Positions 31,906 to 38,328 of a DNA stretch of 64,000 nucleotides are shown here, piece by piece (position 1 is the stretch's first letter; the number at the start of each line of letters is the position of its first letter). Under the pieces are notes generated by a model that saw only the letters and a list, made by a program, of their open reading frames with translations, ran no database searches and had not been told where the DNA came from. A program made the position numbers and the translations under genes. This DNA is from Candidatus Poribacteria bacterium (lineage in GTDB: Bacteria; Poribacteria; WGA-4E; WGA-3G). Location: the NCBI GenBank assembly GCA_965261435.1, contig CBDHDL010000021.1, positions 4,379,950 to 4,443,949 of the forward strand, written 5' to 3'.

Positions 31906-33165
31906 ATGGATTCAGATGAGATTATCTCAAATGTGAATACCGCTTCACATCCATCAGAACTGAAAATTACCGACATGCGAATTGTCAGAACGCAGGTGGG
32001 TGGACCTATCCTTAGATTGGACACAAATCAGGATATACATGGTCTTGGAGAAGTGCGTGATGGGGGAAGTCCAACCTACGCTCTGATGCTGAAAAGTCGC
32101 ATCATCGGTGAAAATCCGTGCAATGTTGACAAAATATTTCGTAAGATAAAACAGTTCGGACACCACGCGAGACAAGGGGGAGGTGTCTGTGGAATCGAAA
32201 TGGCGCTAATGGATTTAGCAGGAAAAGCCTATGGTGTTCCATGTTACCAACTTGCAGGTGGAAAATTCAGAGACAAAATAAGATGTTATAGTGATACTCC
32301 TTCTTTAAAAGATGCAGAACAAATGGGGAAAAAACTCCAGGAACGCATTGACAAAGGATTCACATTTTTGAAAATGGATGTAGGTATTGGACTACTTAGC
32401 GGTATCCCGGGGACACTATCAGCACCTGAAGGAAACCTAAGTTCACATAATCTTAAGCATCCTTTTACAGGTATCAGACTGACAGAAAAAGGCATCAACA
32501 TTCTCTGTGAATATGTAGAAACTGTCAGAGAAATAATTGGATATGAAGTACCGCTTGCTGTGGATCATTTCGGTCATATCGGAATTGAAGATTGTATCCG
32601 ACTTGCAAGGTCATTGGAAAAATACAATCTTGCTTGGTTAGAGGATATGGTGCCGTGGCAATATACAGATCAATATGTACGTCTTTCAAACTCCTGTGCC
32701 ACCCCAATCTGTACAGGAGAGGATATCTACTGCAAAGAGGATTTTTTACCACTGTTTGAAAATAGAGCTATCGCAATTTGTCATCCTGATATAGCAACCT
32801 CGGGGGGCATACTGGAAACAAAGAAGATTGGTGATCTTGCGGAAGAACACGGTATTGCAATGGCACTACACATGGCAGGAACACCTGTATGTGCAATGGC
32901 AAGTGTTCATTGTGCTGCAGCAACATCTAATTTTATGGTCTTAGAAAATCATTCTGTAGACAATCCATGGTGGGATGAAATGGTGACCGGATTACCAAAT
33001 CCTATTATCCAAGATGGATACATTGAAGTACCTGAAACACCCGGATTAGGAATTGAACTCAACGAAGAAATAATCAAAGCACATCTTCATTCGGATGAAG
33101 AAGGTTATTTCTTGCCTACAACAGAATGGGATAACGAACGTTCACATGATAGGTTGTGGAGTTAG
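31906..33165 (+). CDS. enolase-superfamily enzyme (MR/MLE family)
   Basis: Capping domain 'LKITDMRIVRTQVGGPILRLDTNQDIHGLGE'. The barrel has 'FLKMDVG', 'LAVDHFG', 'WLEDMV' and 'CTGED'. Its stop (TAG 33163-33165) overlaps the stop of the convergent cassette gene. Confidence 0.75.
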   Translation: MDSDEIISNVNTASHPSELKITDMRIVRTQVGGPILRLDTNQDIHGLGEVRDGGSPTYALMLKSRIIGENPCNVDKIFRKIKQFGHHARQGGGVCGIEMALMDLAGKAYGVPCYQLAGGKFRDKIRCYSDTPSLKDAEQMGKKLQERIDKGFTFLKMDVGIGLLSGIPGTLSAPEGNLSSHNLKHPFTGIRLTEKGINILCEYVETVREIIGYEVPLAVDHFGHIGIEDCIRLARSLEKYNLAWLEDMVPWQYTDQYVRLSNSCATPICTGEDIYCKEDFLPLFENRAIAICHPDIATSGGILETKKIGDLAEEHGIAMALHMAGTPVCAMASVHCAAATSNFMVLENHSVDNPWWDEMVTGLPNPIIQDGYIEVPETPGLGIELNEEIIKAHLHSDEEGYFLPTTEWDNERSHDRLWS

Positions 33166-33734
33166 GTTAGGCCCCTCGCTTTTAGCAGGACATTTGCTAA
33201 ATTTCTTTCATCATTACATTTGCTTTTACTAATGACATATTCACTACCATTAAATCTAATTTTTTCATGCATTAGTTTCCTATATTGTGATTTGTGAGTA
33301 CCACTACCGTGGAATAGAACAGGCACACAAGTTATAATGATCTTTGCTGGAACAACACTTTTCGCGTAATCAGCGCCGCCACGTAGTTGATCTGCCACAT
33401 CTTTTGCGCTTTTAAAAGTACCACCTTTGTTTTCGATTAAAACTATAACAAGTTGATCGCTGTTCGGACAGATGTAAAAGAGTATTTTGTCACAATGTTT
33501 CCCAGTACTTCCACGTGCATTAAAAGCAAGATCAACATCCACTACTACACGCTCAATTGGTAGTCCACTCATGTCAACACTACATTTATTGCTACTGCAG
33601 GAAGATGTTAGATTTTCTTCACCTACCCTCCTTCGTATTTCATTGAGAGTTTCACTCATTTTTATTTTCTGCGTCCTCATTAAGGAATTGCCGTTCAAGA
33701 TCAACGAAAGTATTATATAAGTGATCAGCAACAT
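33162..33734 (-). CDS. small protein with a PD-(D/E)xK-like nuclease motif; putative effector of cassette 1
   Basis: 'RVVVDVDLAF...CDKILFYICPNSDQLVIVLIENKGG' is a D...ExK core. Its start overlaps the ATPase 3' end by ~80 bp. Its paralog at 35325-35873 has the same architecture. Confidence 0.45.
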   Translation of the reverse strand: MLLITYIILSLILNGNSLMRTQKIKMSETLNEIRRRVGEENLTSSCSSNKCSVDMSGLPIERVVVDVDLAFNARGSTGKHCDKILFYICPNSDQLVIVLIENKGGTFKSAKDVADQLRGGADYAKSVVPAKIIITCVPVLFHGSGTHKSQYRKLMHEKIRFNGSEYVISKSKCNDERNLANVLLKARGLT

Positions 33735-35121
33735 CTTCGTAATCTTTCGGCTCTATACCTTCAATGCGATCAAAAGGTATCTCTTCTACAGGTTTATTAG
33801 ATTGAAACCACCATACACCTACTTCTTCTTTTTGCAATTTGTATGGTATTGCACCCGATTCACCATTGTGTTCTTTCAGTTCACCTTCACGAATTAGATT
33901 GGCGATTTGCTGAAGAAGCCAATCGCTATGCGTTGTTATTATCACACGAACTCCAGCTCGGACCAATCGCGCAAGTGCAACAGCAACCTGTGTTTGTGCC
34001 CTTGGATGCAGATGCGCTTCAGGTTCTTCAATGATGAGTGTATCACCAGGATTAACTAAACTTCGAAGGAATATTACTAAGGGGGTAAGTTCTGATACCA
34101 TTGAGGATGTCCTATTCATCTGTATTGCTTGTTTTGAGTGTTTTGGACAGAAAATGAACTGTGGATATCCGACACCAGCATGTCTGTTTACCATTATTTC
34201 CCCTTGCAAGACCTCGTTTTCGAGTATTTTTGATATTTCAGTTATTTCACTTGAAGACCGTTCACGATCATTGTAATTGATGATATGTTTGAGAAAATCC
34301 GCGATCACGCCAGTAAGCATGGAAATTTCTTGTGAGTGTGCCAATCCAGAACGAGTCGCACGATCCACAAGGCCACTTGTTATTACGCCATGTGTTTCCA
34401 TAATTCCACCTTGAATAGAAGGTAGAAAAAATGTATGGTGTCTTGGCAATTCCGACATTGAAATGCCTAATCGTGAAACTAATTCCAATATATCTGCTTC
34501 ATCTTTTGACTTGTCATTATTGCAGTAAGTAAAGACCATATCTTCGTTAATTTTCTTATTCGTAATGATACCAGACGCAGAACTATAACAATTTATAGAC
34601 CACAGAAATTGGCTCTCATCACTAATTCTTACCTCAAAATTCATCTCATCTTCAGAATTATTCGTGAATCTTCTCAATTCTTCTATGAATTCAAGGTCAA
34701 AACACCTTTTGAGTTCGGTTTCAATCACTTTCGAATTTTCCATATCATCTTTCAACAGTTTCTTAACTATCTGAGGTAAATCTGAAAACTTGAATGTTCT
34801 TCCTATAGTATAGAGTTTGTGAAATGCATCATGAATTTCTTTTTTCACACTGTTTGGATTTGGTACGGATTGATCCTGACCGATGTATTTGGATTCAAAA
34901 CTATGTGGAGTAAAGGGTATCCAAGGAATTCTTGAAAATCCCTCAAATGTCTGTTGTAATGCATAGATTAGAGTAGCAAGATATGTCTTACCAGTATTGC
35001 TTTCACCGACAAACACCGTCAGTGGACGCAAATCTATCTCTGCCTTCTCAATTGGTCCAAAGTTCTCTACTGCTATGTTGATGTTTAGGGGTTTTTGCGC
35101 TATCTCTTCGTGCATTGGCAA
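33652..35121 (-). CDS. ABC-type (AAA_15/AAA_21-like, OLD/PtuA/AriA-like) ATPase of cassette 1
   Basis: Walker A 'VFVGESNTGKTYL'; Q-loop region; 'SSMVSELTPL' signature-like; Walker B/D-loop 'TLIIEEPEAHLHPRAQ'; H-loop 'IITTHSDW'. 489 aa. Confidence 0.75.
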   Translation of the reverse strand: MPMHEEIAQKPLNINIAVENFGPIEKAEIDLRPLTVFVGESNTGKTYLATLIYALQQTFEGFSRIPWIPFTPHSFESKYIGQDQSVPNPNSVKKEIHDAFHKLYTIGRTFKFSDLPQIVKKLLKDDMENSKVIETELKRCFDLEFIEELRRFTNNSEDEMNFEVRISDESQFLWSINCYSSASGIITNKKINEDMVFTYCNNDKSKDEADILELVSRLGISMSELPRHHTFFLPSIQGGIMETHGVITSGLVDRATRSGLAHSQEISMLTGVIADFLKHIINYNDRERSSSEITEISKILENEVLQGEIMVNRHAGVGYPQFIFCPKHSKQAIQMNRTSSMVSELTPLVIFLRSLVNPGDTLIIEEPEAHLHPRAQTQVAVALARLVRAGVRVIITTHSDWLLQQIANLIREGELKEHNGESGAIPYKLQKEEVGVWWFQSNKPVEEIPFDRIEGIEPKDYEDVADHLYNTFVDLERQFLNEDAENKNE

Positions 35122-35147
35122 TTCTCCTTTTCAACGTGTATGTAGAC

Positions 35148-35181
35148 TCTATTATACACGAAAAAAAGGGTAACTGCAAGG
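35148..35181 (-). promoter_or_regulatory. near-consensus sigma70 promoter (TTGCAG-17-TATAAT) driving cassette 1
   Basis: Minus-strand reading: cttgcagttaccctttttttcgtgtataatagag, ~30 bp upstream of the ATPase ATG. Conserved at 37308-37341. Confidence 0.6.
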
Positions 35182-35217
35182 TATGAGAATAGGGAATCAC
35201 CAACATGCGTGTTGGCC

Positions 35218-35328
35218 AAACTCAACGAAGAAGTAATCAAAGCACATCTTCACTCGGATGAAGATGGTTATTTCTTGCCTACAACAGATTGGGATTATGA
35301 ACGTTCACATGATAGGTTGTGGAGTTAA
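35218..35328 (+). repeat. ~108-bp diverged copy (~95% identity) of the 3' end of the enolase-superfamily gene (33058-33165)
   Basis: 'ctcaacgaagaagtaatcaaagcacatcttcactcggatgaagatggttatttcttgcctacaacagattgggattatgaacgttcacatgataggttgtggagttaa' versus 33058-33165. The stop overlap with the cassette-2 small gene is the same as at the 33162-33165 junction. Confidence 0.85.
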
Positions 35329-35873
35329 CTTAATAGTTTCTTCTGTAGTATCTTAGATAATTTTCCCCCGCAGCGGGCAGTAATAATTTCAGACGAGATA
35401 CCTTGAAAACTTATTTGTGATTTGATTTTTCTTAGATGTCTTATTTCGGCTCTACTTAAATGATTGTGATACAATATGGGAATGAAAATTGTTTTGATTC
35501 CTGATGAAACAAAACTTGCTGCATAAGCCGCTCCACTTTTTAATTGCATGACAGCCTTATCTGCCTCGGCATTCTTTCCACCTTTGAGTTCTATTGCTAC
35601 AACAACTAGTCTTTCGGATGAATCAAAATAAAAAATAATGCATTCACATTGACTCTTGCTTTGTTGTCCATGTGGAAATACTTTATCTAAATCTACTACA
35701 ACCCGTTCATTTTCTGATACTCCTGTCAAACCTACACTACAATTCCCTCTTTTGAATGAATTTTTTAAAAACAAGCTCTCTTTACCGATCTGTCCTCTTA
35801 TATTCTCTAATACCTCACTCTTGTTCACTCGTGTTAGCTCCTGCATTTTCTCTGAGTGAGGAACGAAGGTCAA
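35325..35873 (-). CDS. small protein with a PD-(D/E)xK-like nuclease motif; putative effector of cassette 2
   Basis: 'RVVVDLDKVF...CECIIFYFDSSERLVVVAIELKGGKN'. Likely true start at the internal Met (MQELTRVNK...). Overlaps the ATPase 3' end. Confidence 0.45.
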   Translation of the reverse strand: MTFVPHSEKMQELTRVNKSEVLENIRGQIGKESLFLKNSFKRGNCSVGLTGVSENERVVVDLDKVFPHGQQSKSQCECIIFYFDSSERLVVVAIELKGGKNAEADKAVMQLKSGAAYAASFVSSGIKTIFIPILYHNHLSRAEIRHLRKIKSQISFQGISSEIITARCGGKLSKILQKKLLS

Positions 35874-37278
35874 CAGAATGATTGTAGAGATCCTCTGCTA
35901 CATTTCCATAGTCAGGTGGTTCTATTCCATTAACAAGATCAAATTTAATCTCCTCTACAGGTTTGTCAGCATGAAACCACCATGCACCAACTTCTTCAGC
36001 AGTCAAATAAGTCGATGAATCTTGTTGTTTCTGCTCCATTCTCATCAATTCACCCTCGCGAACTAAATTACTAATTTGTTCAAGAAACCAATCACTATGT
36101 GTTGTAATTATAACACGAACTCCAGCTCGGACCAATCTCGAAAGTGCAATGGCAACCTGGGTTTGGGCTCTCGGATGCAGATGTGCTTCAGGTTCTTCAA
36201 TGATCAGTGTATCTCCGCATTTTACATATCTTCGCAGATACAAGACTAAAGGAGTAAGTTCTGATACCATTGAAGAGCATTGACTCATTCGAAGTGCAAT
36301 TTCTGATTGTTTTGGATAGTAGAGATACTCAGGATAACTAACTCCAGCAGGCTTGTTTATTTCAATTCTTCCTTGCAAGACTTCGGTTTCAAGGTATTTA
36401 GCAATGAAATCTATCTTATCTGATAAACCTCTAACTTCGTTATAATTGACGATCTGATTCAGAAAATCTACAATCATTCCCGAAAAAGTTGGTATTTCAG
36501 GGTAAAGTTCAAGTCCGACTTTAGTTGTCCGATTGTAGAGAGCCATAGTAATAATACCATGACTTTGCATGATACCACTTCGCGCAGCAGGTAGGTAGTG
36601 TGAACTTTTTTCTTCTCTTCTGTCTATTCGAAATATTCTTCTAAATTCGTCAAAATCAAGCGGCTCATGTCTACTTTTTCTGTTATCAGTATTAATAACC
36701 ATATCTCCGTTAATCAAACCGTATGCTGTGCTACCTGTCCCATTGTTCTGCATATCAAATGACCATAGAGTTTGGTTAACGTCACTAATATTTAGTGAGA
36801 AACTTAAAACATTGTTTGAGTCTCTTGCTGACCGAATTATCTCTGAAATTGTTTCTAAATCGTAATAGAGTCTAAGTTTCTCTTCAATAGAATCAGTTCT
36901 ATTAAGATCGGATTCCAACATAGTACGCACGCGCTCAGGTAAATCTGAGAATTTGAAGGGACGTCCATGAGTGTTTAATTTCTCAAGAATCTCAAAAATT
37001 TCTCTATCAAGTTTTTCCTGGTTTGATACTTTCCGAGCAACTGGACGGTAAGTAAAAGCTATATTTGATTGTAAACGGTGTGACGATGGAAATTGTGTGA
37101 AACCATCAAAACTTTTATGCAATGAATGAATTAGAGTAGCAAGATATGTCTTACCAGTATTGCTTTCACCGACAAACACCGTCAGTGGACGCAGATCTAT
37201 ATCTGCCTTCTCAATCGGTCCGAAGTTTTCAACTGATATGTTGATTTTAAGGGGTTTTTGATCTTTCTCTTCGTGCAC
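35815..37278 (-). CDS. ABC-type (AAA_15/AAA_21-like) ATPase of cassette 2; paralog of 33652-35121
   Basis: Same motifs ('VFVGESNTGKTYL', 'TLIIEEPEAHLHPRAQ', 'IITTHSDW'). N- and C-terminal thirds are ~90% identical at nucleotide level to cassette 1; the middle is diverged. Confidence 0.75.
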   Translation of the reverse strand: MHEEKDQKPLKINISVENFGPIEKADIDLRPLTVFVGESNTGKTYLATLIHSLHKSFDGFTQFPSSHRLQSNIAFTYRPVARKVSNQEKLDREIFEILEKLNTHGRPFKFSDLPERVRTMLESDLNRTDSIEEKLRLYYDLETISEIIRSARDSNNVLSFSLNISDVNQTLWSFDMQNNGTGSTAYGLINGDMVINTDNRKSRHEPLDFDEFRRIFRIDRREEKSSHYLPAARSGIMQSHGIITMALYNRTTKVGLELYPEIPTFSGMIVDFLNQIVNYNEVRGLSDKIDFIAKYLETEVLQGRIEINKPAGVSYPEYLYYPKQSEIALRMSQCSSMVSELTPLVLYLRRYVKCGDTLIIEEPEAHLHPRAQTQVAIALSRLVRAGVRVIITTHSDWFLEQISNLVREGELMRMEQKQQDSSTYLTAEEVGAWWFHADKPVEEIKFDLVNGIEPPDYGNVAEDLYNHSVDLRSSLRENAGANTSEQE

Positions 37279-37307
37279 TGCTAATCCTCCTTTACAAGGT
37301 GGAAGTA

Positions 37308-37341
37308 GATTCTATTATACACGAAAAATAGGGTAACTGCA
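37308..37341 (-). promoter_or_regulatory. near-consensus sigma70 promoter (TTGCAG-17-TATAAT) driving cassette 2
   Basis: 'ccttgcagttaccctatttttcgtgtataatagaatc' on the minus strand; paralogous to 35148-35181. Confidence 0.6.
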
Positions 37342-37359
37342 AGGTATGAGAATAGGAAA

Positions 37360-38328
37360 TTATATCAACGAAACAATCCTTTGATATAGATGTGGAACAG
37401 TGACAGAAAAGTCACCGGAAATATGATAACTTTCTCCACCATCCTTTACTGTTCGTATAAGGATAGTTTTCTTTGGTCGGTGATAGTAATGTGCATCAGT
37501 AGGATTCCCTTCATCCTGAAAATCTGGAAAATCTATGAGATCAAAATTCGCTGTTGTAAATTTTCGTATCTCTTCACCATCCTGTGCTGCAATGTTCCGT
37601 GCCATAGATAAACTCTTCAAATAAACTTCAGGTCCCATTACTGCAGAACCCAAATTAAGAAAGACACCACCTTCTAACTTTGAAATAGTCTCCGCGAAAA
37701 TCAGGAAGTCTCTGCCTGATGTCCAACCGATTGCAGCAAAATCTGCTGCAGGATGCTGATCAGTAATGTCAAATCCAATACCCTTATGGACAGTAATAGG
37801 TACTCCTAAACGATAGGCTGCAGCAAATATGCTCACTTCAAGATGAGGAAATTGAATTTTACTTTCTTGATTCTGTATGAGTCGTCCAATAGCATGACCA
37901 TAACCAATTTTGTCTTGGTGACCTCTAATTATTGCCTCATTCAAATACCTTCCTGTCTCTTCCCAGTTACCGAATTTCCCATCACGTATATAAACTTCAA
38001 CATCTTCAAGCGTTGCCCCTATATGTGCCATCTCAAAATCGTGTATCGCACATGCACCATTTGTTGCAATGTGGGTAATCATACCACGTTTCATTAGATC
38101 AATTATAAAGCGTGAATTACCACGACGCATCACATGTGCACCCATCATCCAAACAACCTGTTTTCTGTTCTGATAGGCTTTGACAATACATTCAGCGACG
38201 ATGTTGAGTCGTTCATTTTCATAACGTGGAATGTCACCATCTAACGCATAGATGTGTTCCACAGTCATCTTGTGTTTACGTTGCGATAGCGGTAGAATTG
38301 TAAGGTGAGAACGATCCAAGTAAGACAT
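37360..38328 (-). CDS. hypothetical protein, possibly deoxyhypusine-synthase-like (DHS-like NAD-binding fold)
   Basis: 'VWMMGAHVMRRGNSRFIIDLMKRGMITHIATNGACAIHDFE' is loosely reminiscent of DHS-family motifs. Weak assignment. Confidence 0.3.
   Translation of the reverse strand: MSYLDRSHLTILPLSQRKHKMTVEHIYALDGDIPRYENERLNIVAECIVKAYQNRKQVVWMMGAHVMRRGNSRFIIDLMKRGMITHIATNGACAIHDFEMAHIGATLEDVEVYIRDGKFGNWEETGRYLNEAIIRGHQDKIGYGHAIGRLIQNQESKIQFPHLEVSIFAAAYRLGVPITVHKGIGFDITDQHPAADFAAIGWTSGRDFLIFAETISKLEGGVFLNLGSAVMGPEVYLKSLSMARNIAAQDGEEIRKFTTANFDLIDFPDFQDEGNPTDAHYYHRPKKTILIRTVKDGGESYHISGDFSVTVPHLYQRIVSLI

What the first reader, a model, noticed from the sequence alone, without database searches (positions are those of the whole stretch)
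33652..37278. Mosaic divergence between the two ATPase paralogs: termini conserved at nucleotide level, central region hypervariable
The first ~60 codons (compare 34975-35121 with 37131-37278) and the Walker-B/H-loop region (compare 33900-34040 with 36060-36200) are ~85-93% identical at the DNA level. The central ~250 codons are almost unalignable, and the small partner proteins are only ~30% identical. This pattern suggests gene conversion or recombination of a conserved ATPase chassis with swappable sensor/specificity segments and effectors.
Basis: seen in the sequence. Interest (0 to 1): 0.6.

Follow-up and report, generated by a model that had tools for sequence, protein, structure and literature searches.

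The report
Recombining tandem ATPase-nuclease defence cassettes
Two neighbouring, very different copies of a two-gene candidate phage-defence module (an ABC-type ATPase plus a small nuclease-like partner) in a sponge-symbiont genome share short, nearly identical stretches at the ATPase motifs, and related genomes show these stretches are where the variable middle of the ATPase and the tail-plus-nuclease unit get exchanged between versions.

Summary
The mosaic is real. In correct register the 5' block is 90% identical (132/147 nt) and the Walker-B/H-loop block 85% (120/141). The middle is 20-50% identical in amino acids, and the small partners about 30-36%.

Two causes are superimposed:
- **Family-wide constraint.** The A1/A2 identity profile tracks the conservation profile of 84 other family members (r=0.88). 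Most of the protein-level mosaic is therefore an ordinary conserved ABC head with hypervariable inserts.
- **Recombination.** The paralogs share a 64-nt exact tract at Walker A (p=5e-5), an 88% identical non-coding promoter, and a 94.5% identical copy of the neighbouring gene's 3' end in the spacer. The 5' block groups by genome; the tail plus partner groups by type.

Related Poribacteria genomes carry reassorted versions. L083 is A2-like up to codon ~380 and A1-tail plus S1-like after it. L063 equals L007 except for a swapped insert.

The system is a WonAB / PD-T4-4 / PDC-M47-like ABC ATPase plus PD-(D/E)xK-like partner. Its function is inferred by analogy.

The true C-terminus is not conserved, and the Walker-B similarity in this window is mainly purifying selection.

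The parts
35815..37278 (-). A2: ABC-type (AAA_15) ATPase of the upstream cassette, 487 aa, GTG start
   Evidence: ORF. Pfam AAA_15 1.7e-23. PADLOC PD-T4-4_A 3.8e-37 and PDC-M47A 4.3e-31. Motifs GESNTGKT 37147-37170, TLIIEEPE 36187-36210, TTHSD 36091-36105.
35325..35828 (-). S2: small partner (167 aa, GTG start, overlaps the A2 end by 14 nt), 'type 2' PD-(D/E)xK-like protein
   Evidence: Weak PADLOC PDC-M47B hit, 1.9e-4. 62-67% identical to the L001-upstream and L061 partners but only 36% to S1.
33652..35115 (-). A1: ABC-type (AAA_15) ATPase of the downstream cassette, 487 aa, ATG start (= P0001)
   Evidence: Pfam AAA_15 1.1e-27. PADLOC PD-T4-4_A 1.3e-40. AlphaFold model pTM 0.79 matches PtuA, SMC, Rad50 and OLD heads. 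Motifs GESNTGKT 34984-35007, LPSIQGG 34405-34425, SSMVSEL 34087-34107, TLIIEEPE 34018-34041, TTHSD 33922-33936.
33162..33659 (-). S1: small partner (165 aa = P0121, overlaps the A1 end by 8 nt), 'type 1' PD-(D/E)xK-like protein
   Evidence: Model pLDDT 92. Weak but consistent Foldseek hits to restriction-endonuclease folds: FokI, HamA, Can2, BamHI. Invariant D43, E76-x-K78, Q91, H117; D57 >=90%. PDC-M47B hit 1.8e-4.
34937..35197 (-). 5' homology block of cassette 1: promoter (-35 TTGCAG 35174-35179, -10 TATAAT 35151-35156), RBS GGAG 35124-35127, and the first ~58 codons including Walker A
   Evidence: 87% identical over 261 nt to 37100-37360. The non-coding part is 72/82 identical.
37100..37360 (-). 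5' homology block of cassette 2 (promoter -35 37337-37342, -10 37314-37319, RBS 37287-37290, codons 1-~58). Its upstream end abuts the stop codon of the 322-aa gene.
34967..35030 (-). 64-nt tract exactly identical to 37130-37193 (codons LRPLTVFVGESNTGKTYLATLI): a gene-conversion tract
   Evidence: Permutation p = 5e-5. In this tract the paralog differs at 2 nt, against 7 or more for any of 85 other family members.
37130..37193 (-). Partner copy of the 64-nt exact tract, in A2
34111..34944 (-). A1 Insert 1 + Insert 2 (residues ~58-335): the hypervariable middle and putative sensing module
   Evidence: Family-wide conservation is 0.11-0.5 here. The best identity of Insert 1 to any other cassette at the same chromosomal site is 33%.
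36280..37107 (-). A2 Insert 1 + Insert 2 (residues ~58-333)
   Evidence: 80-86% amino-acid identity to the L083 ATPase, whose tail and partner are type 1.
33876..34100 (-). A1 conserved core block (signature, Walker B, D-loop, H-loop). It is the recombination breakpoint zone in L083.
   Evidence: 182/225 nt identical to 36045-36269. Same-codon fraction 0.60 vs 0.55 background. L083 max-chi2 breakpoint at codon 380.
36045..36269 (-). A2 conserved core block
33655..33875 (-). A1 C-terminal tail (residues ~414-487), type-specific and co-inherited with S1
   Evidence: Tail vs small-protein identity: Mantel r = 0.65, p = 0.0005 at this chromosomal site. 84% identical to the L083 tail, 43% to the A2 tail.
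35818..36044 (-). A2 C-terminal tail (residues ~412-487), type-specific and co-inherited with S2
   Evidence: 68% identical to the L001-upstream tail, 43% to the A1 tail.
35219..35327 (+). Copy of the last 36 codons of the neighbouring MR_MLE gene, left in the spacer after S2. It marks the end of the 2163-nt tandem unit.
   Evidence: 94.5% identical to 33056-33164. Local alignment z = 56.
33056..33164 (+). Genuine 3' end of the MR_MLE gene (31906-33165), convergent with S1 and overlapping it by 4 nt

Best explanation
**What it is.** The window holds two stacked alleles of one candidate defence locus. Each cassette is a promoter, an ABC-type ATPase and a translationally coupled small PD-(D/E)xK-like protein. 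This is the WonAB / PD-T4-4 / PDC-M47 kind of two-gene system.

**Context.** The locus sits beside a conserved MR_MLE gene in a clade of sponge-symbiont Poribacteria, and it carries very different cassette versions in different genomes.

**Modules.** The cassette behaves as linked modules:
- promoter plus Walker-A block;
- Insert 1 and Insert 2 (hypervariable, probably the trigger-recognising part);
- signature / Walker-B / H-loop block;
- C-terminal tail plus small nuclease. These are inherited together, probably because the tail docks the nuclease, as modelled for WonA/WonB.

**How the mosaic arises.** The two conserved ATPase blocks are kept alike in all alleles by purifying selection. They therefore offer enough sequence identity for homologous recombination between otherwise unalignable alleles. 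In the window this has produced a 2163-nt tandem unit whose ends are young and whose interior is ancient. The young ends are the promoter plus N-block at 87%, a 64-nt exact conversion tract, and a copied MR_MLE fragment at 94.5%. The interior is saturated at synonymous sites, and each type has its own relatives in other genomes.

**Evidence elsewhere.** The same blocks are the breakpoints of insert swaps and tail-plus-effector swaps in other genomes.

**Shown vs inferred.** Shown: the mosaic, the conversion tract, the phylogenetic incongruence, and the recombinant alleles with their breakpoints. Inferred: anti-phage function, abortive-infection mechanism, sensor role of the inserts, tail-nuclease docking, and the order of events that built the tandem.
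For: - **Architecture and family.** (ATPase; small protein). The ATPase-then-small-protein operon is kept in nearly all of 82 related loci.
- **Family-wide conservation profile.** It explains the amino-acid mosaic: r = 0.88.
- **Conversion.** The 64-nt exact run has p = 5e-5. L001 and L015 tandem pairs have 67 and 70 nt runs, p = 0.002 and 5e-5. Non-tandem same-genome pairs have 8-20 nt. In the tract the paralog differs at 2 nt, against 7 or more for all others.
- **Non-coding similarity.** Promoter 88% identical. MR_MLE fragment 94.5%.
- **Incongruence.** The 5' block groups by genome; the tail plus small gene groups by type.
- **Recombinants.** For L083, informative sites are 370:50 for A2 left of codon 380 and 36:325 right of it. 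L083's flanks and both halves are all ~88-90% identical to the window. L063 vs L007 vs L061 shows a clean insert replacement. There are 19 pairs with small protein >= 75% but Insert 1 <= 50%, and 5 pairs of the reverse kind. Breakpoints cluster at the block edges.
- **Linkage.** Small vs tail r = 0.65 (p = 0.0005); small vs Insert 1 r = 0.02.
- **Ancient alleles, not fast in-situ divergence.** dN/dS is 0.1-0.32 in the cassette, with dS no higher than in the flanks.
- **Functional analogy.** WonAB needs both genes. WonB is a PD-(D/E)xK variant predicted to bind the dimerised C-terminal extensions of WonA. Defence is abortive through a translation block (PMC12137116).
Against: - In the window itself the Walker-B block shows no excess synonymous identity over background, or over the syntenic copy in L002. 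Recombination there is seen only in other genomes.
- L083 is a 14-kb short-read metagenome scaffold seen once. An assembler skipping the loop between two repeated blocks of a tandem would give the same chimera.
- L001, which has the same type-2 then type-1 order, has no detectable MR_MLE fragment in its spacer (z = 1.9). The history of the tandem is therefore unresolved.
- The nuclease fold assignment rests on weak Foldseek scores (E >= 0.045) plus a motif.
- The small proteins do not reach PADLOC's PD-T4-4_B model and only weakly reach PDC-M47B.
- No phage-defence experiment exists for this family.
Confidence: 0.75

Rival explanations
1. Purifying selection alone. The two ATPases are old paralogs. 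The mosaic only reflects strong constraint on the nucleotide-binding motifs and weak constraint on the inserts, with no recombination between them.
For: The A1/A2 sliding identity tracks the family conservation profile (r = 0.88). A1's N and core blocks are as similar in amino acids to unrelated genomes' copies (83%, 75%) as to A2 (81%, 72%). The Walker-B block same-codon fraction is 0.60 against 0.55 background.
Against: It cannot explain several observations:
- the 64-nt exact tract (p = 5e-5);
- the 88% identical non-coding promoter;
- the 94.5% copy of a neighbouring gene's end;
- within-genome clustering of the 5' block in two genomes;
- the restriction of long exact tracts to tandem pairs.
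Confidence: 0.1
2. Recent in-situ tandem duplication followed by very fast diversifying selection. The whole 2163-nt unit was duplicated recently. The inserts, tail and partner then diverged rapidly under positive selection, while the ends stayed similar.
For: The structure is a perfect tandem unit with a copied MR_MLE fragment at 94.5% and promoters at 88%. Insert 1 has the highest dN/dS of the cassette (0.32).
Against: - Synonymous sites in the middle are near saturation (same-codon 0.55 vs 0.41 expected at saturation).
- S2 and the A2 tail have closer relatives in other genomes (62-68%) than in the sister cassette (36-43%), and likewise for S1 and the A1 tail.
- dN/dS is below 1 everywhere, and the cassette dS is not above flank dS in the window-L083 comparison.
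Confidence: 0.07
3. Independent arrival of two unrelated cassettes at a defence hotspot, for example by a mobile element. The similarity of the ends then comes from the common insertion site or a shared vector sequence, with no exchange between cassettes.
For: The same MR_MLE-adjacent site holds one or two cassettes of very different sequence in 13 other loci. The family is spread over many phyla of sponge symbionts.
Against: No integrase, transposase or repeat boundaries flank the cassettes. The exact tract lies inside the coding sequence at Walker A, not at a boundary. In L001 the homogenised region covers 85 codons of the core block. Recombinant alleles show exchange within the genes.
Confidence: 0.05
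4. Assembly artefact. The chimeric alleles, or the tandem itself, are products of metagenome assembly across repeats or strain mixtures.
For: L083 and L084 are short metagenome contigs seen once. A collapsed tandem loop would give exactly L083's structure.
Against: - The window's proteins are on a 4.83-Mb contig.
- L001 and L002 are on 5.9-Mb contigs.
- Reassorted pairs occur among records titled chromosome or on megabase-scale contigs: L063/L061, and L057/L054/L048.
- An internal insert replacement flanked by 98-100% identity (L063 vs L007) is not a loop collapse.
Confidence: 0.03

Closest known systems
WonAB of Vibrio cholerae WASA-1 prophage ('OLD-ABC ATPase + novel REase' operons; PMC12137116)
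   Same: A two-gene operon in the order ABC ATPase then small protein. The ATPase carries Walker A, an R-containing Q-loop position, Walker B and H-loop at comparable spacing: K43/R235/E364/H396 here against K34/R182/E300/H333 in WonA. The small partner has a PD-(D/E)xK-type motif (K78 here, K71 in WonB). The ATPase has a C-terminal extension, which in WonA is predicted to bind the nuclease; here the tail co-varies with the partner (r = 0.65). [quoted passage not shown]
   Different: This ATPase is ~490 aa with larger inserts. The locus is chromosomal and beside housekeeping genes, not in a prophage. No experimental data exist. The allelic reassortment and tandem stacking described here are not reported for WonAB.
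PD-T4-4 (E. coli; Vassallo et al. 2022, PMC9519451; classed as a PD-(D/E)xK nuclease-NTPase system in bioRxiv 10.1101/2025.07.10.664194)
   Same: It is the best PADLOC match for both ATPases (PD-T4-4_A, 1.3e-40 and 3.8e-37). It has the same nuclease plus P-loop NTPase two-gene logic.
   Different: Neither window small protein matches PD-T4-4_B. Only 1 of 27 family members does, at 2e-4. The ATPase match comes in two stretches and skips much of the insert region.
PDC-M47 (PADLOC candidate system)
   Same: Both components match: PDC-M47A at 3.5e-32 and 4.3e-31. PDC-M47B is the only PADLOC family hit by the small proteins (1.8e-4 and 1.9e-4; 15 of 27 members, best 2.5e-6).
   Different: The B match is weak and limited to ~40-80 residues around the catalytic core. 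PDC-M47 is itself only a computational candidate.
PARIS (AriA/AriB), Septu/retron PtuAB, Gabija, OLD
   Same: All have a related ABC ATPase head: AriA HMM 4.8e-30, and Foldseek matches to PtuA, OLD, SMC and Rad50 heads. All follow the sensor-ATPase plus nuclease-effector logic.
   Different: The effector here is a small stand-alone restriction-endonuclease-like protein, not a TOPRIM (AriB, GajA, OLD) or HNH (PtuB) nuclease.
Concerted evolution and domain reassortment in clustered immune genes (e.g. plant and fungal NLR clusters; my own knowledge, not tested here)
   Same: A conserved nucleotide-binding module, hypervariable recognition parts, tandem copies, and gene conversion or unequal crossing-over creating new combinations.
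   Different: This is a bacterial chromosome with a different ATPase class and much shorter homology blocks (tens of nucleotides). Exchange occurs among strains at a single site as well as between tandem copies.

Membership tests
ABC ATPase (AAA_15 / OLD-SMC-like head) | [quoted passage not shown] | tested here: met
   GESNTGKT, LPxxRxG, SSMVSEL, TLIIEEPE, AHLHP and TTHSD are found in both proteins. Pfam AAA_15 1e-27 and 2e-23. The model matches PtuA, SMC, Rad50 and OLD heads at E ~1e-10.
WonAB-type 'ABC ATPase + REase-fold nuclease' system | Two-gene operon: ATPase followed by a small stand-alone nuclease | tested here: met
   Overlapping genes (8 and 14 nt) in both cassettes. The pair is kept in nearly all of 82 related loci.
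WonAB-type 'ABC ATPase + REase-fold nuclease' system | Partner has a PD-(D/E)xK nuclease fold with conserved acidic residues and lysine | tested here: inconclusive
WonAB-type 'ABC ATPase + REase-fold nuclease' system | Sequence homology to WonA / WonB | not testable with these tools
   Only accession numbers are given in PMC12137116, and the sequences are not in any searchable collection here. tblastn of A1 against plasmids found nothing.
WonAB-type 'ABC ATPase + REase-fold nuclease' system | Nuclease docks on the ATPase C-terminal extension | not testable with these tools
   No complex prediction was available. Indirect support: tail and partner are co-inherited (Mantel r = 0.65, p = 0.0005) while the inserts are not (r = 0.02).
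WonAB-type 'ABC ATPase + REase-fold nuclease' system | Protects against phage; both genes and catalytic residues required | not testable with these tools
   This needs experiments.
PD-T4-4 (PADLOC definition) | PD-T4-4_A and PD-T4-4_B models both matched by adjacent genes | tested here: not met
   The A model is matched strongly (1.3e-40, 3.8e-37). The B model is not matched by S1 or S2, and by only 1 of 27 relatives at 2.3e-4.
PDC-M47 (PADLOC candidate) | PDC-M47A and PDC-M47B models both matched by adjacent genes | tested here: inconclusive
   A: 3.5e-32 and 4.3e-31. B: 1.8e-4 and 1.9e-4, partial coverage; 15 of 27 relatives match, best 2.5e-6. PADLOC's own cut-offs are not known to me.
PARIS / Gabija / OLD / Septu | Effector is a TOPRIM (AriB, GajA, OLD) or HNH (PtuB) nuclease | tested here: not met
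   The small partners have no Pfam domain, no PADLOC hit other than PDC-M47B, and a restriction-endonuclease-like model.
Gene conversion / concerted evolution between tandem paralogs | Paralogs within a genome more alike than same-type copies between genomes, in a bounded tract | tested here: met
   5' block: 0.86 (window) and 0.83 (L001) within genomes, against 0.60-0.64 between genomes. The reverse holds for the tail plus partner.
Gene conversion / concerted evolution between tandem paralogs | Excess identity at synonymous and non-coding sites in the tract | tested here: met
   A 20-codon identical run vs 7.2 expected, p = 5e-5. Promoter 72/82 identical. Not met for the Walker-B block of the window (0.60 vs 0.55), but met there in L001.
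Intragenic recombination between alleles (module reassortment) | Recombinant sequences with two identifiable parents and a sharp breakpoint | tested here: met
   L083: 370:50 vs 36:325 informative sites, chi2 = 472, breakpoint at codon 380. L063 equals L007 (98-100%) outside the insert and L061 (84-98%) inside it. Formal GARD, 3SEQ or RDP tests were not run.

The most novel reading that the evidence does not exclude
The conserved Walker-A and Walker-B/H-loop coding blocks act as recombination linkers of a combinatorial bacterial immune locus. At one fixed chromosomal site in Poribacteria, recognition inserts and tail-plus-nuclease effector units from deeply diverged alleles are repeatedly reassorted. 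This happens by homologous recombination between strains, and between tandemly stacked copies, which serve as intermediates and as sources of chimeras such as L083. It gives the population many sensor-effector combinations, much as clustered NLR genes evolve in eukaryotes.
Probability: 0.45. Interest if true: 0.65.

Novelty: new member of a known kind. Interest (0 to 1): 0.5.

Why it matters
ABC-ATPase plus nuclease pairs are among the commonest bacterial defence designs: PARIS, Septu, Gabija, Lamassu, WonAB and PD-T4-4. How their specificity diversifies is mostly inferred from domain catalogues.

This locus offers a natural, well-resolved example. It has one chromosomal site, many alleles, identifiable parents and recombinants, and breakpoints at the ATPase motifs. 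It also makes two testable predictions:
- The inserts set what is recognised.
- The C-terminal tail sets which nuclease is used.

It further shows that a large, unnamed family of small nuclease-like partners (about 1200 clusters at 50% identity) is widespread in sponge symbionts of many phyla.

The underlying system type and the idea of modular exchange are not new, so this is a useful case study rather than a new principle.

Tried and rejected
- **Fast in-situ divergence.** I first suspected that the cassettes diverge much faster than their flanks (flanks 87-92% amino-acid identity, cassette 55-60%). The window-L083 comparison rejected this: dS is no higher than in the flanks and dN/dS is 0.1-0.32. 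The difference reflects old alleles, not rapid mutation.
- **Conversion at Walker B in the window.** I tested whether this block is a conversion tract. It is not detectably so.
- **MR_MLE fragment in L001.** I looked for one in L001's spacer to date the tandem. It was not significant (z = 1.9).
- **Exact-sequence look-ups.** Look-ups of A2 and P0001 found no contig.
- **Other searches.** Rfam found nothing in the locus. tblastn of A1 against plasmids found nothing. The Krishnan et al. 2020 ABC-ATPase survey could not be read. A literature search for prior reports of such recombination in anti-phage ATPases found none in the held library, which is not proof of absence.

Full report
**Anatomy.** The finding spans two cassettes on the minus strand.
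- The upstream cassette is ATPase A2 (35815-37278) and small protein S2 (35325-35828).
- The downstream cassette is ATPase A1 (33652-35115; the ORF list starts it at TTG 35121, but the database protein P0001 and the ribosome-binding site point to the ATG at 35115) and small protein S1 (33162-33659).
- In each cassette the small gene overlaps the ATPase stop, by 14 and 8 nt.
- Upstream lie a 322-aa gene and SMC. Downstream, convergent and overlapping S1 by 4 nt, lies an MR_MLE-family gene (31906-33165).

**Checking the observation.**
- A1 and A2 are 50% identical overall. The profile is very uneven:

| Alignment columns (30-codon windows) | Amino-acid identity | Nucleotide identity |
|---|---|---|
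| 1-60 | 73-93% | 80-92% |
| 61-300 | 20-50% | 39-61% |
| 346-405 | 80-93% | 76-89% |
| last ~75 | 43-63% | 49-70% |

- The partners are 29-36% identical.
- The mosaic is therefore real.
- Two corrections apply. The true C-terminus is not conserved. The 5' block runs 82 nt further upstream into non-coding DNA at 88% identity, with identical TTGCAG-17 nt-TATAAT promoters and GGAG ribosome-binding sites.

**How much is simple constraint.** I collected 82 related loci from species-representative genomes, plus syntenic loci found by exact-protein look-up.
- Nearly all carry the same ATPase-then-small-protein pair.
- The sliding identity of A1 vs A2 correlates with the family-wide conservation profile of the other 84 ATPases at r = 0.88.
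- At the amino-acid level, A1's N block and core block are as similar to copies in other genomes as to A2.
- The protein-level mosaic is thus the generic profile of this family: a conserved ABC head split by hypervariable inserts.
- On the AlphaFold model (pTM 0.79), the head matches PtuA, SMC, Rad50 and OLD heads. The variable part corresponds to the regions between Walker A and the LPxxRxG position, and between that and the signature motif. The WonAB paper calls these Insert 1 and Insert 2.

**What constraint cannot explain.**
1. **An exact tract.** 34967-35030 is identical to 37130-37193: 64 nt, or 20 consecutive identical codons against 7.2 expected. The permutation test, which holds the amino-acid pattern fixed, gives p = 5e-5. 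In this tract A2 differs from A1 at 2 nt, counted over the bounding codons. The next best of 85 family members differs at 7, and the median is 16.
2. **A conserved promoter.** The non-coding promoter is 88% identical.
3. **A copied gene end.** 35219-35327, the spacer after S2, is a 94.5% copy of the last 36 codons of the MR_MLE gene at 33056-33164. The locus is therefore a tandem repeat of a 2163-nt unit. The unit consists of the MR_MLE 3' end, the small gene, the ATPase and the promoter. Its upstream end abuts the stop codon of the 322-aa gene.
4. **An ancient interior.**
   - Among identical residues in the middle, only 55% use the same codon, against 41% expected at saturation.
   - S2 and the A2 tail are closer to the upstream cassette of L001 (64% and 68%) than to S1 and the A1 tail (36% and 43%).
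   - S1 and the A1 tail are closer to L001-downstream, L002, L003, L005 and L083.
   - The ends of the unit are young and the interior is old.

**Concerted evolution.**
- Identity matrices for the 5' block (-85 to +180) group sequences by genome: window pair 0.86 and L001 pair 0.83, against 0.60-0.64 for same-type copies across the two genomes.
- Matrices for the tail plus small gene group sequences by type: 0.67-0.72 across genomes against 0.54-0.56 within genomes.
- All three tandem pairs I found (window, L001, L015) have exact runs of 64, 67 and 70 nt. These are the maxima of their overall-identity classes among 3655 pairs. Ten pairs in the same genome but at different loci have 8-20 nt.
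- In L001 the homogenised region also covers about 85 codons of the Walker-B block.
- In the window the Walker-B block shows no such excess (same-codon 0.60 vs 0.55 background). It is as close to L002's as to A2's.

**Recombinant alleles.** Thirteen other loci have a cassette next to an MR_MLE homologue that is 87-97% identical in amino acids to the window's, so this is one chromosomal site with many alleles.
- **L083.**
  - It has the window's SMC, 322-aa gene and MR_MLE context with a single cassette.
  - From the promoter to ATPase codon ~380 it matches A2 at 82-98% nt. From there to the end of the small gene it matches the A1 tail and S1 at 90-98%.
  - Informative sites are 370:50 left of the breakpoint and 36:325 right of it (max chi2 = 472).
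  - Flanks and both halves are all ~88-90% identical to the window.
  - This is the product expected from unequal homologous recombination between A2 and A1 in the Walker-B/H-loop block of a window-like tandem.
  - Because L083 is a short-read scaffold seen once, an assembly that skipped the repeat loop is a possible alternative.
- **L063, L007 and L061.** L063 (record titled chromosome 1) is 98-100% identical to L007 upstream, in the N block, and from the core block through the small gene. Its ~650-nt insert region is 40-62% like L007 and 84-98% like L061. L061's partner is only 33% identical to L063's.
- **Across all cassettes.** Among 79 cassettes there are 19 pairs with partner >= 75% but Insert 1 <= 50%, 5 pairs of the reverse kind, and only 6 concordantly similar pairs. 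Several discordant pairs are on megabase-scale contigs or records titled chromosome.
- **Breakpoint positions.** Identity profiles place the breakpoints just after the Walker-A helix, just before the signature/Walker-B block, and just after the H-loop.
- **Linkage at the MR_MLE site.** Partner identity correlates with tail identity (Mantel r = 0.65, p = 0.0005) but not with Insert 1 (r = 0.02) or the N block (r = 0.05). Insert 1 and Insert 2 correlate with each other (r = 0.46).

**Not fast mutation.** Between the window and L083, flanking genes have dN/dS 0.04-0.08 and dS 0.49-0.56. The cassette segments have dN/dS 0.10-0.32 (highest in Insert 1) and dS 0.29-0.57. The large distances between alleles are therefore old variation that is reshuffled, not rapid in-place divergence.

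**What the system is.**
- **ATPases.** Both match Pfam AAA_15 and AAA_21. In PADLOC they match PD-T4-4_A best (1e-40), then PDC-M47A, AriA and NsnB.
- **Small proteins: database matches.** They have no Pfam or NCBIfam match. Their only PADLOC match is a weak one to PDC-M47B (2e-4; 15 of 27 relatives, best 2.5e-6).
- **Small proteins: model and motifs.**
  - The S1 model is confident (pLDDT 92) with an alpha-beta-beta-beta-alpha-beta core.
  - E76-x-K78 is invariant at the end of the third strand.
  - D57 precedes the second strand (E in S2).
  - D43, Q91, H117 and three cysteines are also invariant.
- **Small proteins: fold.** Foldseek's best PDB matches are restriction-endonuclease-fold proteins (FokI, HamA, Can2, BspD6I, BamHI), but at weak scores.
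- **Family size.** The profile finds 1221 cluster representatives at E <= 1e-3. All that carry a name are called hypothetical.
- **Host range.** The family occurs mainly in Candidatus Poribacteria. It also occurs in Latescibacterota, Caldilineaceae, Acidobacteriota, Nitrospirales, Spirochaetia, and Alpha- and Gammaproteobacteria MAGs.

**Likely function (inferred).** The closest studied system is WonAB (PMC12137116).
- It is an ABC ATPase plus a PD-(D/E)xK-variant protein, and both are required.
- ATPase and nuclease motifs are essential.
- Defence is abortive, through translation arrest without genomic DNA degradation.
- By analogy, I propose that each cassette here forms an ATPase dimer whose inserts recognise a phage-derived cue and whose tails hold the cognate nuclease. 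The tail-partner co-inheritance fits this; nothing else about function was tested.

**History of the tandem (inferred, unresolved).** Two routes are possible.
- An unequal exchange between two chromosomes carrying different alleles at this site.
- A duplication followed by replacement of one copy's interior through recombination in the promoter/N block and the MR_MLE fragment.

L001 has the same type order but no detectable MR_MLE fragment. The tandem may therefore be old and kept partly homogenised, or it may have arisen more than once.

**Verdict.** Most of the amino-acid mosaic is ordinary constraint. In this window only the 5' block (promoter to Walker A) shows direct evidence of conversion. 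The system is a new, unnamed member of a known kind of defence module. Its value is as a clear natural example of module reassortment at ATPase motifs.

Noticed in passing
L050:8160-8744 (OZ241378.1, Poribacteria chromosome): The family ATPase is interrupted exactly between 'RVGVRVII' and 'TTHSDW' (the H-loop) by about 585 nt. The insertion has no long ORF, an internal TTGACA...TATAAT promoter-like site, hairpins, and similar short repeats (CCCAAT.CTTTAG.TTTGGGA) near both ends. It has no Rfam match and no copy in the other loci. It could be an intron-like or miniature mobile element targeting the conserved motif.
   Followed up: partly
L015:10817-10843: A 26-nt copy of the ATPase segment encoding 'LIYALH' (the end of the conserved N block) lies downstream of the second cassette. 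It matches both ATPases of that tandem (92-96%) and looks like a scar of a further recombination or a lost third cassette.
   Followed up: partly
L007 and L063 (different Poribacteria genomes, both MR_MLE-adjacent): The cassettes are 98-100% identical at the DNA level (small protein 99%, a 132-nt exact run) except for the insert region, which is only ~27% identical in amino acids. This implies a very recent insert replacement, or recent transfer of the rest of the cassette.
   Followed up: yes
window 33162-33659 (S1) and its family alignment A2: Cysteines C26, C56 and C148 and histidine H117 are invariant, and C21 and C111 are at least 90% conserved. This suggests a metal-binding site in the small nuclease-like protein. 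It is not part of the canonical PD-(D/E)xK motif.
   Followed up: no
window 33082-33103 and 35245-35266: A 22-nt hairpin (CATCTTCAyTCGGATGAAGAwG) sits inside the MR_MLE 3' coding end, and again in its spacer copy, where it is flagged as terminator-like on both strands. It may act as a bidirectional terminator between the convergent genes and between the two cassettes.
   Followed up: no
loci L003-L082: The family is concentrated in MAGs whose taxa (Poribacteria, Latescibacterota, Caldilineaceae, Acidobacteriota, Nitrospirales, Spirochaetia, Alpha- and Gammaproteobacteria) I recognise as typical sponge symbionts. Several genomes carry two or three copies at separate loci. This suggests cross-phylum spread within one habitat.
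   Followed up: partly
L001:6067-7335: The upstream ATPase of L001's tandem is only 422 aa. It lacks about 60 residues of Insert 1 relative to the others, as do L061 and L063 (413-420 aa). Insert 1 therefore varies in length as well as sequence.
   Followed up: no
L084 (2-kb Logan contig): Its ATPase has a core, tail and partner about 90% identical to the window's A1/S1. Its insert region is only 20-50% identical to A1 and also unlike A2. This is another apparent insert swap on the type-1 background.
   Followed up: partly
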